64,000 nucleotides of DNA from Gammaproteobacteria bacterium (GTDB lineage Bacteria; Pseudomonadota; Gammaproteobacteria; Steroidobacterales; UBA11654). Below the pieces are notes generated by a model that was not told the origin of the DNA, did no database searches, and saw nothing but the letters and a program-made list of their open reading frames with translations. Each line of letters opens with the position of its first letter. Positions within the stretch are counted from its first letter, which is position 1. The stretch covers positions 634-64,633 of the forward strand of contig DTSX01000111.1 of the NCBI GenBank assembly GCA_012965065.1. Direction: 5' to 3'. Made by a program: the position numbers and the translations under genes. Positions 16,068 through 20,227 of this stretch are shown here, piece by piece.

Positions 16068-16100
16068 GTGCTGAATAATCAAGAACTCAGGAAGCAAGTT

Positions 16101-18194
16101 GTGGCAAGAAAGACACCAATAGAGAGATACAGAAATATCGGTATTATGGCTCACATAGATGCCGGAAAAACTACAACTACCGAAAGAGTTCTGTTCTATA
16201 CCGGTATTTCTCACAAGATAGGTGAAGTACATCACGGTAATGCCGTAATGGACTGGATGGAGCAAGAACAGGAAAGAGGTATTACAATTACTTCAGCTGC
16301 AACCACATGTTTTTGGCAAGGAATGGATCAACAATATGATCAGCACCGAATCAATATAATCGACACGCCTGGGCATGTTGATTTTACTATTGAAGTTGAG
16401 AGATCTCTTCGAGTCTTAGATAGTGCAATTGCGGTTTTTTGCGCAGTCGGAGGAGTTGAGCCTCAATCTGAAACAGTCTGGAGACAAGCTAACAAATACT
16501 CAGTCCCAAGGTTAGCTTTTGTTAATAAAATGGATAGAGCTGGTGCTGATTTTTTAAGAGTAGTTGAGCAAATTAAGCAACGTTTGGGATCCAACCCAGT
16601 TCCAGTCCAGCTTCCTCTTGGCTCAGAAGATAATTTCTCTGGAGTAGTAGATCTAATTAGAATGAAGGCCATAAAATGGAATGATGAAGACCTTGGGGTA
16701 ACTTATGTTGAAGAAGATGTACCAGAAAATATGACTGCTATTTGCAAAGTCTGGCGTGACAAGATGATCGAGTCAGCTGCAGAAGCATCAGAGGAAATTC
16801 TTGATCATTATTTAGAAAACGGGGATTTAGACCTAAATCAAATCATAACTGGTCTTAGGACTCGAACATTAAGTGGTGAAATAGTTCCAGTAATTTGTGG
16901 ATCTGCTTTTAAAAACAAGGGTATCCAAGCAATGTTGGATGCCGTAATTGAATTTTTGCCTTCACCCGTAGATAAACCAGCCATCACTGGTATTCTTGAA
17001 GATGGATCTAAAAGCACTAGAAGAGCAGATGATAGTGAAAACTTTTCAGCATTGGCGTTTAAAATAGCCAATGATCCATATGTCGGTAATCTCACATTTT
17101 TTAGAGTTTATTCTGGGGTCTTGCGTTCAGGGGATACAATATACAATCCTTTGAAATTTCAAAAAGAAAGAATCGGAAGAATCCTTCAAATGCACGCAAA
17201 TTCAAGAGAAGAAATTAAGGAGGTCAGGGCAGGTGATATTGCTGCTGCTGTTGGGTTGAAAAATGTTACCACGGGCGATACTTTGTCAGATCGAAAGAAT
17301 ATAATTACTTTGGAAAAAATAGAATTTCCAGATCCCGTTATTTCTGTTGCCCTAGAACCTAAATCAACTGAAGACGAATCCAAGATGAGTATTGGACTTC
17401 AAAAGTTGGCAAAAGAGGACCCTTCATTCAAGGTTGCAACTGATGAAGAGTCAGGCCAGACAATTATCTCAGGAATGGGAGAACTACATCTGGATATTAT
17501 AGTTGACAGACTATCCCGTGAATTTAAGGTTGGAGCAAATATAGGAAGGCCCCAGGTTGCTTACAGAGAAACAATTAGAAAATCTGTTAATCAGGAAGCG
17601 AAATTTGTTCGACAAACGGGTGGCCGTGGCCAATATGGGCATGTTTATATCAGAATGGAGCCCCAAAAACCTGGTGAAGGATATGAATTTATTAATGATA
17701 TAAAGGGTGGAGCGATTCCAAAAGAGTTTATACCTGCGGTAAACAAAGGTATCCAAGAGCAAATGACAAATGGAGTTATTACAGGTTTCCCAGTGGTGGA
17801 TGTAAAAGTAAGTTTATATGATGGCTCTTTTCATGCTGTTGATTCTAGCGAAGTTGCCTTTAGAGTTGCTGGCTCTATGGCTTTTAGAGAAGGTGCTTTG
17901 AAAGCCAATCCAGTGCTATTGGAGCCAGTTATGAGCGTAGAAGTTGTAACGCCTGAAAATTATATGGGTGATGTAAACGGTGATTTGAATAGAAGAAGAG
18001 GCATACTGCAAGGCATGGATGAATCACCTGCTGGTAAAATTATAAGGGCCGAGGTGCCGCTTGCTGAAATGTTTGGATATGCCACTGATTTAAGATCAAT
18101 GAGTCAAGGTAGGGCTACCTACACAATGGAATTTTCCAAATACAGTGAAGCACCAAAGAAGCACATTGAAGTATTATCTGGGACAGGAAGTTAA
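16101..18194 (+). CDS. fusA: Elongation factor G
   Basis: Contains [12 protein letters not shown] and DTPGHVDF motifs. The ORF track starts at the GTG at 16068, but the GTG at 16101 gives the canonical [16 protein letters not shown]-terminus and has AGGAAG 7 nt upstream. The start is therefore ambiguous (16068 or 16101). Confidence 0.95.
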
Positions 18195-18196
18195 TC

Positions 18197-18511
18197 ATGG
18201 CAAATACTCAGTCAATTAGAATCAGATTAAAATCATTCGATCACAAGCTGATTGATACCTCTACTGCAGAAATAGTTGAAACGGTGAAAAGAACGGGTTC
18301 TGCTATCTCTGGCCCAATACCTCTGCCTACTTCAAGGGAGAGGTTTACATTGCTGATATCGCCACATGTAAACAAAGATGCCAGAGATCAATATGAGCTC
18401 ACAACTCATAAGCGAGTGATGGAAATCATTAATCCAAATGATAAAACCGTGGATGCTCTGATGAAGCTTGAATTACCTGCTGGTGTTGATGTTCAAATAA
18501 AATTGAACTGA
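18197..18511 (+). CDS. rpsJ: 30S ribosomal protein S10
   Basis: 104 aa with [16 protein letters not shown]...ISGPIPLPT. Starts 2 nt after the fusA stop. Confidence 0.98.
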
Positions 18512-18530
18512 TATTAAAAATTGATATAAT
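18503..18530 (+). promoter_or_regulatory. Candidate promoter at the rpsJ 3' end (TTGAAC-16 nt-TATAAT)
   Basis: TTGAAC at 18503-18508 and a consensus TATAAT at 18525-18530. It would drive a leader of about 210 nt ahead of rplC. Based on hexamer evidence only. Confidence 0.3.
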
Positions 18531-18746
18531 TCCCCAACGATTTCAGCCTATAAATTGAAAAGAATTGTAGGCCTGTTTGGGTGAGTTTCATACTTGCAGG
18601 CGTGCGTACCATTCGTTAGCTTAGTTTGTAATTGTTTTATTTGTTGTAAACCTTTGTAAAACAATAACTTAGTTAAATTAGGAATCAAATTATTTGAATG
18701 GAAGATAAGATTATAAACAAGGACAAAATTTTTGTAAAAAATCAGA

Positions 18747-19604
18747 ATGATTGGGATCATTGGAAAAAAATGCGGGATGACAAGAGTTTTTACGGACGAT
18801 GGAAAGTCTGTACCGGTTACTATTATCCAAGCACATCCCAACCAGATAAATAGAATTAAAACACTAGAATCGGATGGCTATAATGCTATCCAAGTTACCA
18901 CAAACCAAGCATCTTCAAAGATAACCAAACCGGTACAGGGGCAATTCAGCAAGAGTAATATTACCCCAAGAGCCACACTCCACGAGTTTCGAGTTGATGA
19001 TCATGAATTAGAGCAAGTTGAAACTGGTAAAGAAATTAAAGTTAATTACTTCAACAAAGGTGAGCGGGTTGATGTTGTTGGTAAGACTATCGGCAAAGGA
19101 TTTGCAGGGGTAATAAAAAGACATAATTTCAGCATGCAAGATGCCACACACGGTAATTCTCTTGCACACAGGGCACCAGGGTCAATTGGCCAAAACCAAA
19201 CTCCCGGAAGAGTATTCAAAGGCAAAAAAATGGCAGGGCACATGGGTAATGTTAGAAGAACAATACAGAATCTTGAAGTTATTGAAATTGATGAAGAGAG
19301 AAATCTATTGTTTATCAAAGGCTCTGTATCTGGACATGTAAATTCTGATTTGATTGTTACCCCGGCAACAAAATCAAAAAAGATCGACAGAGAAATTTTT
19401 GGGACATTAGATCAAGAAGACCAGCCAGAAATCCCAGAAACATCCTCAGAAGCCCAGCCAGAAACTCCAGAAACATCCTCAGAAGCCCAGCCAGAAACTC
19501 CAGAAACATCCTCAGAAGCCCAGCCAGAAATTGTAGAAAACAGATCCAAATCTGAGCAAAAGCAGTCCATTGATTCGGATCAAGTAGATAGTGAACAGGC
19601 CTGA
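18747..19604 (+). CDS. rplC: 50S ribosomal protein L3 with a 75-aa acidic repeat-containing C-terminal extension
   Basis: Canonical N-terminus MIGIIGKKCGMTRVF. The L3 body ends near aa 210 (SDLIVTPATKS), and the ORF then continues to 285 aa. Confidence 0.95.
   Translation: MIGIIGKKCGMTRVFTDDGKSVPVTIIQAHPNQINRIKTLESDGYNAIQVTTNQASSKITKPVQGQFSKSNITPRATLHEFRVDDHELEQVETGKEIKVNYFNKGERVDVVGKTIGKGFAGVIKRHNFSMQDATHGNSLAHRAPGSIGQNQTPGRVFKGKKMAGHMGNVRRTIQNLEVIEIDEERNLLFIKGSVSGHVNSDLIVTPATKSKKIDREIFGTLDQEDQPEIPETSSEAQPETPETSSEAQPETPETSSEAQPEIVENRSKSEQKQSIDSDQVDSEQA
19434..19532 (+). repeat. 3 x 33-nt direct tandem repeat inside rplC (encodes PETSSEAQPET units)
   Basis: ccagaaacatcctcagaagcccagccagaaact occurs at 19434-19466 and, identically, at 19467-19499. 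The third copy at 19500-19532 has one substitution (ends att). Confidence 0.95.
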
Positions 19605-19609
19605 TTACT

Positions 19610-20227
19610 ATGAAAATTGATCTTATAAGTCAGAATAAAGAGAAGATAAAGAATATTGAGCTATCAAGTTCGATATTTGAAGTGCCTTTCAATGAAACAC
19701 TAATTCATGAAGCGGTTACATCTTATCTCACAAATTCCAGGGCTGGAACCAAAGCTCAAAAAAATAGATCTGCTGCGAGAGGAGGTGGAGCGAAACCCTG
19801 GAAGCAAAAAGGTACTGGAAGGGCTAGAGCAGGAACAATAAGAAGTCCTTTGTGGGTTGGAGGCGGCAAGACATTTGCTGCAACCAATAAAACTTATCAC
19901 AAGAAAATAAATAAAAAGGTTCTCAAGTCTGCATTGAAGTCAATACTTTCAGCCTTAGCAAGAGAAAACAGATTAATAGTTATTGATGAAATTACTATAG
20001 AAGAACCAAAAACTAAATTTATGATTGGTTTATTAGAAAAATTGGAATTGGAAAACGTTTTAATCATTCTGAAGGAACTAGAGATAAACATTAAGTTGGC
20101 ATCGAGAAACATACCCAATGTAGAAGTTATTACTCTAGATAAGATGAATCCTGTCAGCCTAATTAAATTTGATTATGTGTTGATGGATTCTAAGGTTCTT
20201 GCAGAGATAGAGAGCACATTGCAATGA
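19610..20227 (+). CDS. rplD: 50S ribosomal protein L4
   Basis: 205 aa with GGGAKPWKQKGTGRARAGTIRSPLWVGGG. Confidence 0.97.
   Translation: MKIDLISQNKEKIKNIELSSSIFEVPFNETLIHEAVTSYLTNSRAGTKAQKNRSAARGGGAKPWKQKGTGRARAGTIRSPLWVGGGKTFAATNKTYHKKINKKVLKSALKSILSALARENRLIVIDEITIEEPKTKFMIGLLEKLELENVLIILKELEINIKLASRNIPNVEVITLDKMNPVSLIKFDYVLMDSKVLAEIESTLQ

What the first reader, a model, noticed from the sequence alone, without database searches (positions are those of the whole stretch)
19377..19604. Ribosomal protein L3 carries a 75-aa acidic C-terminal tail built on a near-perfect 3 x 33-nt tandem repeat
The conserved L3 body ends near aa 210 (SDLIVTPATKS), about where E. coli L3 (about 209 aa) stops. 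Here the same frame runs on to 285 aa: KKIDREIFGTLDQEDQPEIPETSSEAQPETPETSSEAQPETPETSSEAQPEIVENRSKSEQKQSIDSDQVDSEQA. At the DNA level, a 33-nt unit is identical at 19434-19466 and 19467-19499, and the copy at 19500-19532 has one substitution. Near-identity at the nucleotide level points to recent slippage or expansion. Copy number may therefore vary between strains, which would be unusual inside an essential 50S gene. The tail is Pro/Glu/Ser/Thr/Gln-rich, strongly acidic and probably disordered. rplD starts 5 nt after its stop, so it looks genuinely translated. A surface-exposed acidic appendage on L3 could recruit factors or modulate assembly, but that is speculation.
Basis: partly seen in the sequence, partly recalled or inferred. 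Interest (0 to 1): 0.6.

Follow-up and report, generated by a model that had tools for sequence, protein, structure and literature searches.

The report
Variable acidic repeat tail on L3
The ribosomal protein L3 of this uncultured marine gammaproteobacterium really does carry a 75-residue acidic, probably floppy tail, and its 11-residue repeats vary from one to five copies between close strains; similar disordered L3 tails are already known from about one bacterial species in eight, so this is a clean example and not a new kind of thing.

Summary
rplC (18747-19604) encodes 285 aa, and the L3 family model ends at aa 204. The rest is a conserved 14-aa linker (TPATKSKKIDREIF), three in-frame 33-nt units (two of them identical) and a 27-aa acidic end. 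rplD starts 5 nt after the stop.

It is not an assembly artefact. Dozens of independent metagenome assemblies carry the same gene, with 1, 2, 3 or 4 units (1-5 in a sister group) between identical flanks.

The tail itself is old. All 148 relatives down to 65% identity have one (33-96 aa; median net charge -15). The repeat unit differs by lineage, yet within each genome the copies are 98-100% identical at the DNA level. By contrast, 157 other gammaproteobacterial L3 genes have no tail.

Acidic low-complexity L3 tails recur in unrelated phyla. Published surveys report L3 extensions in 13% of bacterial species, including a 74-aa one in Mycoplasma pneumoniae.

Most likely this is a solvent-exposed, disordered polyanionic appendage that evolves by replication slippage and is selected for charge and disorder, not for sequence. 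Its function is not shown. Interest is modest.

The parts
18747..19604 (+). rplC, encoding ribosomal protein uL3 (285 aa) including the tail and the stop codon
   Evidence: ORF list. Pfam PF00297 and NCBIfam TIGR03625 both score above their cut-offs. The gene sits between rpsJ and rplD, as in the relatives.
18753..19358 (+). Conserved uL3 core, aa 3-204
   Evidence: TIGR03625 covers profile positions 1-201 of 202. The core aligns end to end with solved bacterial uL3 chains of 204-217 aa.
19359..19400 (+). Conserved linker TPATKSKKIDREIF (aa 205-218), the start of the extension
   Evidence: K209 and I217 are invariant, and S210, R215 and F218 are at least 90% conserved, in 35 diverse clade members. 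The motif KSK(K/Q)xDREIF is seen in nearly all of the 120 hits.
19401..19421 (+). Short variable flank GTLDQED (aa 219-225)
   Evidence: This is the most polymorphic non-repeat segment among close strains, with 4% mean pairwise difference.
19422..19454 (+). Repeat unit 1, QPEIPETSSEA (33 nt; differs from units 2 and 3 at 2 nt)
19455..19487 (+). Repeat unit 2, QPETPETSSEA
   Evidence: Its DNA is identical to unit 3.
19488..19520 (+). Repeat unit 3, QPETPETSSEA
19521..19601 (+). C-terminal 27 aa, QPEIVENRSKSEQKQSIDSDQVDSEQA. It begins with a partial fourth unit (CAGCCAGAAATT)
   Evidence: The last 25 aa are nearly invariant among 52 close strains: 0.6% mean pairwise difference against 1.2% for the core. 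A related S-I-D-x-D...N-I-E-K-V ending is visible in the subgroups at 78-87% identity.
19610..20227 (+). rplD (uL4), which starts 5 nt after the rplC stop
   Evidence: In relatives the gap is 5 nt (L176), 2 nt (L173), a 4-nt overlap (L172) or an 11-nt overlap (L174).

Best explanation
This is a genuine, genome-encoded, lineage-specific C-terminal extension of ribosomal protein uL3.

What is shown:
- A short conserved linker (KSKKIDREIF) is followed by an in-frame array of 33-nt (11-aa) units and a short acidic end.
- The array behaves as a variable-number tandem repeat. Units are gained and lost, presumably by replication slippage or unequal recombination, faster than point mutations accumulate. 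Strains that are nearly identical elsewhere carry 1-5 units.
- Each deeper lineage has replaced the unit with its own (periods of 8-14 or 19 aa), kept 98-100% identical within a genome.
- What persists across the whole clade is the presence of a tail (33-96 aa), its strong net negative charge, its near absence of hydrophobic and basic residues, and the linker.

What is inferred:
- The tail is translated.
- It projects as a disordered polyanion from the solvent face of the 50S subunit, away from the catalytic sites.
- Selection acts on charge, disorder and approximate length, not on sequence.

The role I think most likely is passive and electrostatic. The tail may act as a surface 'bristle', or as a built-in counter-charge that keeps the very basic L3 (+9) soluble and off non-cognate RNA until it binds 23S rRNA early in 50S assembly.

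Confidence is about 0.95 that it is a real, translated, slippage-driven disordered tail, and about 0.35 for the specific role. The figure given is a blend.
For: - Reality: the identical 285-aa protein P0013 was read on 12 contigs, and the six shown come from six different ENA assemblies in the same S10-operon context. Hits come from ENA, JGI, NCBI and Logan.
- Copy-number variation: DNA alignment shows 1, 2, 3 and 4 units between identical flanks. The distribution among distinct proteins is 3, 15, 36 (+6 with an extra PET) and 1 in the window's group, and 1-5 units in a sister group. Strains differing in copy number differ at only 4-13 of 225 other codons.
- Clade-wide tail: all 148 relatives (65-99% identity) have tails of 33-96 aa. 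Median net charge is -15, with 29% acidic and 7% basic residues.
- Lineage-specific units with within-genome DNA identity of 98-100%: 5.5 x 30 nt, 3.8 x 30 nt and 3.9 x 36 nt; a 5.2 x 42-nt array is 88% identical.
- Absence elsewhere: none of 157 other gammaproteobacterial L3 genes has a tail.
- The linker is conserved.
- Disorder: the tail lies on the disordered side of the charge-hydropathy boundary and is 73% disorder-promoting residues. The AlphaFold model has no secondary structure in residues 205-285.
- Surface location and precedent: published extensions of 11 M. pneumoniae ribosomal proteins, including a 74-aa, 91%-disordered one on L3, are all solvent-exposed and away from the active sites. 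Ribosomal low-complexity regions are mostly C-terminal and on the ribosome surface.
- Only L3, among the ribosomal proteins in this window, has such a tail.
Against: - There is no protein-level evidence; translation is inferred from frame conservation.
- The exact allele in the window is not on record anywhere. Its particular unit order could be a consensus of a mixed population.
- The AlphaFold model was poor overall (mean pLDDT 41), so its lack of structure in the tail is weak evidence.
- Persistence of the open frame could be explained by translational coupling to rplD instead of tail function.
- Nothing here tests the electrostatic or chaperone idea.
- One distant member (P0116) has a mixed K/E tail with net charge only -6 and no DREIF linker.
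Confidence: 0.6

Rival explanations
1. The tail is a tolerated passenger. An ancestral rplC lost its stop and read into the rplC-rplD spacer. The frame now stays open only because L4 translation depends on ribosomes arriving from rplC (translational coupling). Acidic, disordered sequence is simply the least harmful thing to hang on a ribosome, and the repeats expand and contract neutrally.
For: - rplD starts 5 nt after, 2 nt after, or overlapping the rplC stop in every lineage.
- The repeat sequence, unit length and copy number are all unconstrained.
- The tail mRNA is unusually unstructured, with z = +2.77 against shuffles. That is compatible with a simple run-through spacer.
Against: - No lineage among the 148 has shortened the tail below 33 aa, although single-unit alleles show that deletions happen readily.
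- The linker and, within the species-level group, the last 25 aa are as conserved as the core.
- Charge is consistently negative although the A-rich coding strand could equally well give lysine.
- The genome is compact, so a useless 225 nt in a highly expressed gene should be costly.
Confidence: 0.3
2. The tail is a flexible tether that presents a short C-terminal peptide motif to recruit a partner protein to the 50S solvent face, with the repeat number setting its reach. This would work like the acidic tip on the disordered linker of SSB, or like the stalk-protein tails.
For: - The architecture is anchor, then variable spacer, then a relatively conserved end. The last 25 aa are nearly invariant among close strains.
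- A similar S-I-D-x-D-x-x-N-I-E-K-V ending is seen by eye in subgroups at 78-87% identity.
- In M. pneumoniae, ribosomal protein extensions cross-link to other proteins.
Against: - The C-terminal end is not conserved across the whole clade. Other lineages end in ...DENKKDK...EAEKKDK...DTKHEN or ...EEKAKE.
- No partner is known.
- The tail alone matches nothing in the PDB.
Confidence: 0.15
3. The tail is an assembly or sequencing artefact: a false repeat expansion, or a missed stop or frameshift near 19,380.
For: - The window's exact protein is not on record.
- Two database entries (P0087, P0085) show frameshifted or garbled tails, so errors do occur in this region.
Against: - The same tail was recovered in many independent assemblies from four repositories.
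- The array (99 nt) is shorter than typical reads, and most alleles contain distinguishable units.
- Tails are present in all lineages despite different sequences.
Confidence: 0.02
4. The region functions at the RNA level, for example as a structured element controlling rplD translation, and the peptide is incidental.
For: It lies immediately upstream of rplD.
Against: - All 200 shuffles fold at least as well as the native sequence: -23.2 against a mean of -34.7 kcal/mol, z = +2.77.
- No credible Rfam match at E <= 1 in 18450-19700; the single weak hit (a microRNA family, 24.5 bits against a gathering score of 48) lies on the minus strand inside the L3 core.
- The nucleotide sequence is not conserved between lineages.
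Confidence: 0.02

Closest known systems
C-terminal extension of uL3 in Mycoplasma pneumoniae (PDB 7OOD chain b, 287 aa; Xue et al. 2022, PMC9534751)
   Same: Almost the same length (74 aa against 75 aa). It is C-terminal, predicted 91% disordered, solvent-exposed and not modelled in the map. It belongs to a class found on L3 in 13% of 4,396 bacterial species.
   Different: It is an unrelated lineage and there is no detectable sequence similarity in the tail. I did not see its tail composition. No tandem DNA repeat or strain-level copy-number variation is described in the parts of the paper I read.
Low-complexity regions in bacterial ribosomal proteins (Ntountoumi et al. 2019, PMC6821194)
   Same: L3 is listed among the ribosomal proteins with low-complexity regions in at least 20 genera. 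These regions are mostly C-terminal and on the ribosome surface, and their function is unknown.
   Different: The reported L3 regions are mostly Ala/Glu-rich (>70% A+E). This tail is E/S/Q/P/T-rich, with only 25% A+E, and is built from exact tandem units.
Acidic L3 tails in other bacterial lineages found here (for example P0154, P0155, P0165, P0166, P0187, P0247, P0263)
   Same: They have 60-190-aa C-terminal tails with net charge from -15 to -34. Some have obvious tandem units (PEAKQEAQPEPA; QEAATEQxDTAAAEVKDDVEPK).
   Different: Their cores are only 40-52% identical, so they are independent acquisitions. They lack the KSKKIDREIF linker. Several instead begin with a proline-rich motif of the ...P-F-P... 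type.
Variable-number tandem repeats in bacterial coding genes
   Same: Head-to-tail near-identical units, and copy number that differs between close strains. Slippage or unequal recombination is the accepted mechanism (established knowledge).
   Different: Classic cases are surface or contingency genes, often with frame-shifting units that switch expression. Here the unit is 33 nt, always in frame, and lies in an essential housekeeping gene.
Disordered linker plus acidic tip of bacterial SSB, and the acidic tails of ribosomal stalk proteins (from general knowledge, not tested)
   Same: A flexible, compositionally biased spacer of variable length ending in an acidic peptide.
   Different: In those systems the tip is strongly conserved and has known partners. 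Here the end is conserved only within subgroups, and no partner is known.

Membership tests
Bacterial ribosomal protein uL3 (TIGR03625 / PF00297) | Scores above the curated family cut-off over the full model | tested here: met
   TIGR03625 scores 281.5 bits against a cut-off of 142.9, covering profile 1-201 of 202 on aa 3-204. PF00297 scores 63.3 against 22.
Bacterial ribosomal protein uL3 (TIGR03625 / PF00297) | Position in the S10 operon between rpsJ and rplD | tested here: met
   The order rpsJ, rplC, rplD, rplW, rplB, rpsS, rplV is seen in the window and in all relatives examined.
Ribosomal protein extension in the sense of Xue et al. 2022 | More than 20 residues beyond the E. coli terminus | tested here: met
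   E. coli L3 (209 aa) aligns to query 1-209, leaving 76 residues beyond. The criterion is quoted.
Ribosomal protein extension in the sense of Xue et al. 2022 | Extension predicted to be mostly disordered | tested here: met
   On the charge-hydropathy plot the tail has H = 0.33 and R = 0.18 against a boundary of -0.23, with 73% disorder-promoting residues. This is a cruder predictor than the IUPred used in the paper. The AlphaFold model shows no secondary structure in the tail but is poor overall.
Ribosomal protein extension in the sense of Xue et al. 2022 | Solvent-exposed on the ribosome, away from the active sites | not testable with these tools
   Inferred from the published statements for M. 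pneumoniae and for ribosomal low-complexity regions. No structure exists for this ribosome.
Ala/Glu-rich low-complexity region of L3 (Ntountoumi et al. 2019) | More than 70% Ala+Glu in the region | tested here: not met
   A+E is 19 of 77 residues (25%). The dominant residues are E, S, Q, P, D and T.
Variable-number tandem repeat | Head-to-tail copies with high identity | tested here: met
   TRF reports period 33, 3.5 copies and 96% matches. Two units are identical.
Variable-number tandem repeat | Copy number differs between otherwise near-identical alleles | tested here: met
   1-4 units (and 1-5 in the sister group) between identical flanks. The rest of the gene differs at 4-13 of 225 codons.
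Phase-variable contingency locus | Repeat changes shift the frame or promoter spacing and switch expression on and off | tested here: not met
   All units are multiples of 3 nt (30, 33, 36, 42, plus a 9-nt PET insertion), so the frame is kept in all but two of the 148 clade proteins examined. Those two frameshifted entries look like errors.
Factor-recruiting acidic tails of ribosomal stalk proteins | C-terminal peptide conserved across the group | tested here: not met
   The end differs between lineages (...DSEQA...NIEKV...ENKKDK...EAEKKDK...DTKHEN).
Factor-recruiting acidic tails of ribosomal stalk proteins | Binds translational GTPases | not testable with these tools
   This needs biochemistry.
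RimK-type poly-glutamate tail (as on bS6) | Acidic residues added after translation | tested here: not met
   The tail is encoded in the gene.

The most novel reading that the evidence does not exclude
The repeat array is a selected 'length dial' on an essential ribosomal protein. Slippage would generate heritable ribosome heterogeneity within natural populations, and tail length or charge (or the C-terminal S-I-D...N-I-E-K-V peptide it presents) would tune 50S assembly or recruit a partner. Copy number would then track environment such as depth, temperature or pressure.
Probability: 0.12. Interest if true: 0.6.

Novelty: new member of a known kind. Interest (0 to 1): 0.3.

Why it matters
The function of disordered extensions on bacterial ribosomal proteins is an acknowledged open question. 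This clade offers an unusually clean natural experiment. One protein has one tail, with a conserved anchor. There are dozens of natural alleles that differ only in repeat number, and sister lineages have swapped the repeat sequence while keeping charge and disorder.

That pattern argues that composition, not sequence, is what is maintained. It also supplies ready-made constructs (1-5 units) for testing whether such tails matter for assembly or solubility. Beyond that, the finding is a well-documented example of something already catalogued, not a new mechanism.

Tried and rejected
- Scans for related loci. They returned only relatives at 63% identity or less, none with a tail. They served as a negative control but did not identify the organism.
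- Taxon. It is therefore unresolved. The window is about 39% G+C and fetched loci of relatives are 34-38%. From their names, the samples look like deep-ocean and vent-plume metagenomes (Malaspina, Station ALOHA, Abe). Any name such as SUP05/ARCTIC96BD-19 or SAR86 would be a guess.
- Structure prediction. The AlphaFold2 model from 35 clade sequences was poor (pLDDT 41), so no fold search was run.
- PDB search with the tail alone found nothing meaningful. An attempt to display the M. pneumoniae tail alignment failed.
- RNA-element idea: rejected.
- Artefact idea: rejected.
- dN/dS. Synonymous and non-synonymous counts among close strains have too few changes in the tail to give a dN/dS.
- Exact look-up of the window's own L3 found no record.

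Full report
**What is in the sequence**

The + strand ORF 18747-19604 encodes a 285-aa protein. It scores far above the curated cut-offs for bacterial ribosomal protein L3. TIGR03625 gives 281.5 bits against 142.9 and covers aa 3-204; PF00297 gives 63.3 against 22. Solved bacterial uL3 chains, including the 209-aa E. coli protein, align to residues 1-209 only. About 76 residues therefore lie beyond the usual C-terminus.

Tandem Repeats Finder reports one strong tandem repeat in the whole 64-kb window: period 33, 3.5 copies, 96% matches, score 211, at 19415-19530. 19434-19466 equals 19467-19499, and 19500-19532 differs by one base.

In codon register the extension has four parts:
- a linker TPATKSKKIDREIF (19359-19400) and a short flank GTLDQED (19401-19421);
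- three 11-aa units: QPEIPETSSEA (19422-19454) and two copies of QPETPETSSEA (19455-19487 and 19488-19520) with identical DNA;
- a 27-aa end, QPEIVENRSKSEQKQSIDSDQVDSEQA (19521-19601), which opens with a partial fourth unit.

The stop is at 19602-19604 and rplD starts at 19610.

**Not an artefact, and copy number does vary**

A protein search returned more than 100 close relatives from ENA, JGI, NCBI and Logan assemblies. Their lengths fall on a ladder of 11 residues: 263, 274, 285 and 296, plus 288 for alleles with an extra PET. One 90%-identity cluster of a sister group contains members of 263, 274, 285, 296 and 307 aa.

DNA fetched for alleles of each length shows 1, 2, 3 or 4 units of 33 nt in perfect register between identical flanks. 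rplD always follows 5 nt after the stop.

Among distinct protein variants of the window's group, 3 have one unit, 15 have two, 36 have three, 6 have three plus PET, and 1 has four. Three main unit variants (QPETQETPPEA, QPEIPEISSEA, QPETPETSSEA) occur in many arrangements. The strains whose DNA was compared differ at only 4-13 of the other 225 codons, so unit number changes faster than point mutations accumulate.

The window's own arrangement is unique, and its exact protein is not on record. Every unit type in it is seen elsewhere. Only read mapping could show whether this order is a true allele or a consensus of a mixed population.

**The tail is old; the repeats are young**

Every one of the 148 relatives retrieved, down to 65% identity, has a tail of 33-96 aa. 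The median net charge is -15, with 29% acidic and 7% basic residues. The only exceptions to the acidic rule are two entries that are visibly frameshifted or garbled.

The repeat unit differs by lineage: ETPE(A/T)VAQPE, DTQEAEVETQ, ETTETAAPEAE, SSEEAQPETPET, and a 19-aa unit. Within each genome examined the DNA copies are nearly perfect:
- 5.5 x 30 nt at 100% (L172);
- 3.8 x 30 nt at 98-100% (L174, L175);
- 3.9 x 36 nt at 99% (L176);
- 5.2 x 42 nt at 88% (L173).

This is the signature of continual expansion, contraction and replacement of the array inside a persistent tail.

The first ten residues of the extension are conserved. K209 and I217 are invariant, and S210, R215 and F218 are at least 90% conserved. 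Within the species-level group, the last 25 residues are as conserved as the core (0.6% against 1.2% mean pairwise difference).

**The tail is specific to this clade among gammaproteobacteria**

That failed to name the organism but gave a control. In 157 complete L3 genes from other gammaproteobacteria, the distance from the GKKMAGHMG motif to the stop is 43-55 residues, against 119 here.

In an exhaustive search of representatives clustered at 50% identity, only three hits above 60% identity have a tail: P0015 (97%) and P0087 (96%, the frameshifted tail), plus one fragment at 92% (P0273) that aligns into it. The closest full-length outsider (57% identity, 221 aa) has none. Among the ribosomal proteins encoded in this window, only L3 has such a tail.

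**It is not unique among bacteria**

In the same exhaustive search, 43 of 129 full-length L3 representatives from other lineages (40-52% identity) carry C-terminal extensions of at least 30 aa. Of these, 26 are strongly acidic, and some are plainly built from tandem units. This list is enriched by the query's own tail, so the fraction is not an unbiased frequency.

Published surveys give the unbiased picture. Xue et al. (2022) found L3 extensions of more than 20 aa in 579 of 4,396 representative species (13%), and 86% of those were mostly disordered. In M. pneumoniae the L3 extension is 74 aa and 91% disordered. All eleven extensions in that ribosome are solvent-exposed and away from the active sites, and their function is unknown although disruption reduces fitness. 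The M. pneumoniae L3 chain in the PDB is 287 aa.

Ntountoumi et al. (2019) list L3 among ribosomal proteins with low-complexity regions in at least 20 genera. These are mostly Ala/Glu-rich, mostly C-terminal and on the ribosome surface. The present tail differs in composition (25% A+E; rich in E, S, Q, P and T) and in being an exact tandem array.

**Physical character**

The core has net charge +9 and pI 9.7. The tail has net charge -15 and brings the whole protein to pI 5.8. The tail lies well on the disordered side of the charge-hydropathy boundary and is 73% disorder-promoting residues.

An AlphaFold2 model shows no secondary structure in residues 205-285. The model is poor throughout (pLDDT 41), so this carries little weight. 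The tail alone matches nothing in the PDB.

**Rivals tested**

- RNA element. The mRNA of 19400-19625 folds worse than all 200 shuffles (z = +2.77). No credible Rfam family matches: the one weak hit is a microRNA family on the minus strand inside the core. The nucleotide sequence is not conserved between lineages. I reject this reading.
- Passenger model. Here the frame is kept open only for translational coupling to rplD, which abuts or overlaps the stop in all lineages. I cannot exclude it. Against it stand the conserved linker, the consistent acidity despite an A-rich coding strand, and the absence of any lineage with a tail shorter than 33 aa even though single-unit deletions are common.
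- Tethered-motif model. It is suggested by the semi-conserved C-terminal peptide (S-I-D-x-D...N-I-E-K-V in several subgroups). That peptide is not conserved across the clade.

**Verdict**

This is a real, almost certainly translated, disordered polyanionic C-terminal extension of uL3. It is specific to one clade of uncultured marine gammaproteobacteria, and its internal array is an in-frame variable-number tandem repeat.

The mechanism of variation (slippage or unequal recombination) is well supported by the allele series. The cellular role is inferred only. I favour a passive electrostatic or solubility role on the 50S solvent face or during early assembly. It is a new and particularly clear member of a known class, not a new kind of system.

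Noticed in passing
window 18194-18746 (rpsJ 18197-18511; gap 18512-18746): rpsJ follows fusA directly, with no tufA between them. A 235-nt AT-rich gap then separates rpsJ from rplC. The gap (236-239 nt) is present in all clade relatives. Its first ~45 nt, overlapping the rpsJ stop, are almost invariant across lineages of 65-99% identity. They hold an extended -10 promoter-like site, TTGAAC-16-(TG)TATAAT, at 18503-18530. rplC may therefore begin its own transcription unit with a ~215-nt leader, possibly a relocated L4 autoregulatory leader. No Rfam match.
   Followed up: partly
P0087 (280 aa) and P0085 (259 aa), relatives: Two database entries read the repeat region in another frame or end in garbled sequence, which gives a basic 'tail'. 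Each comes from a single contig (12.7 kb and 0.9 kb) and is probably an assembly or sequencing error, not a real variant.
   Followed up: no
L172 2385-2388; L174 2285-2295: In more distant clade members rplD overlaps the end of rplC, by a 4-nt overlap in L172 and an 11-nt overlap in L174. In the window there is a 5-nt gap instead. This suggests tight translational coupling of L4 to the L3 tail.
   Followed up: partly
P0175, P0181, P0199, P0203, P0240, P0245, P0246, P0250, P0292, P0295: Many extended L3s from other lineages begin their extension with a short proline-rich motif (for example ...AAPFPAGL......DLPFPAAL......LPFPTF...) before an acidic low-complexity run. It is a different conserved 'anchor' from the KSKKIDREIF seen here.
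   Followed up: no
window 19357-19509 and 19412-19570, minus strand: Two 50-52-aa ORFs on the opposite strand of the repeat. They are by-products of a stop-free repeat and not genes.
   Followed up: no
window 16068-18194: The mechanical ORF for fusA starts at a GTG and is 708 aa. Gene calls in relatives give 682 or 697 aa, so the true start is probably downstream.
   Followed up: no
window 19400-19625: The tail-coding mRNA is significantly less structured than composition-matched shuffles (z = +2.77). It is A/C-rich, with few G or U residues able to pair.
   Followed up: yes
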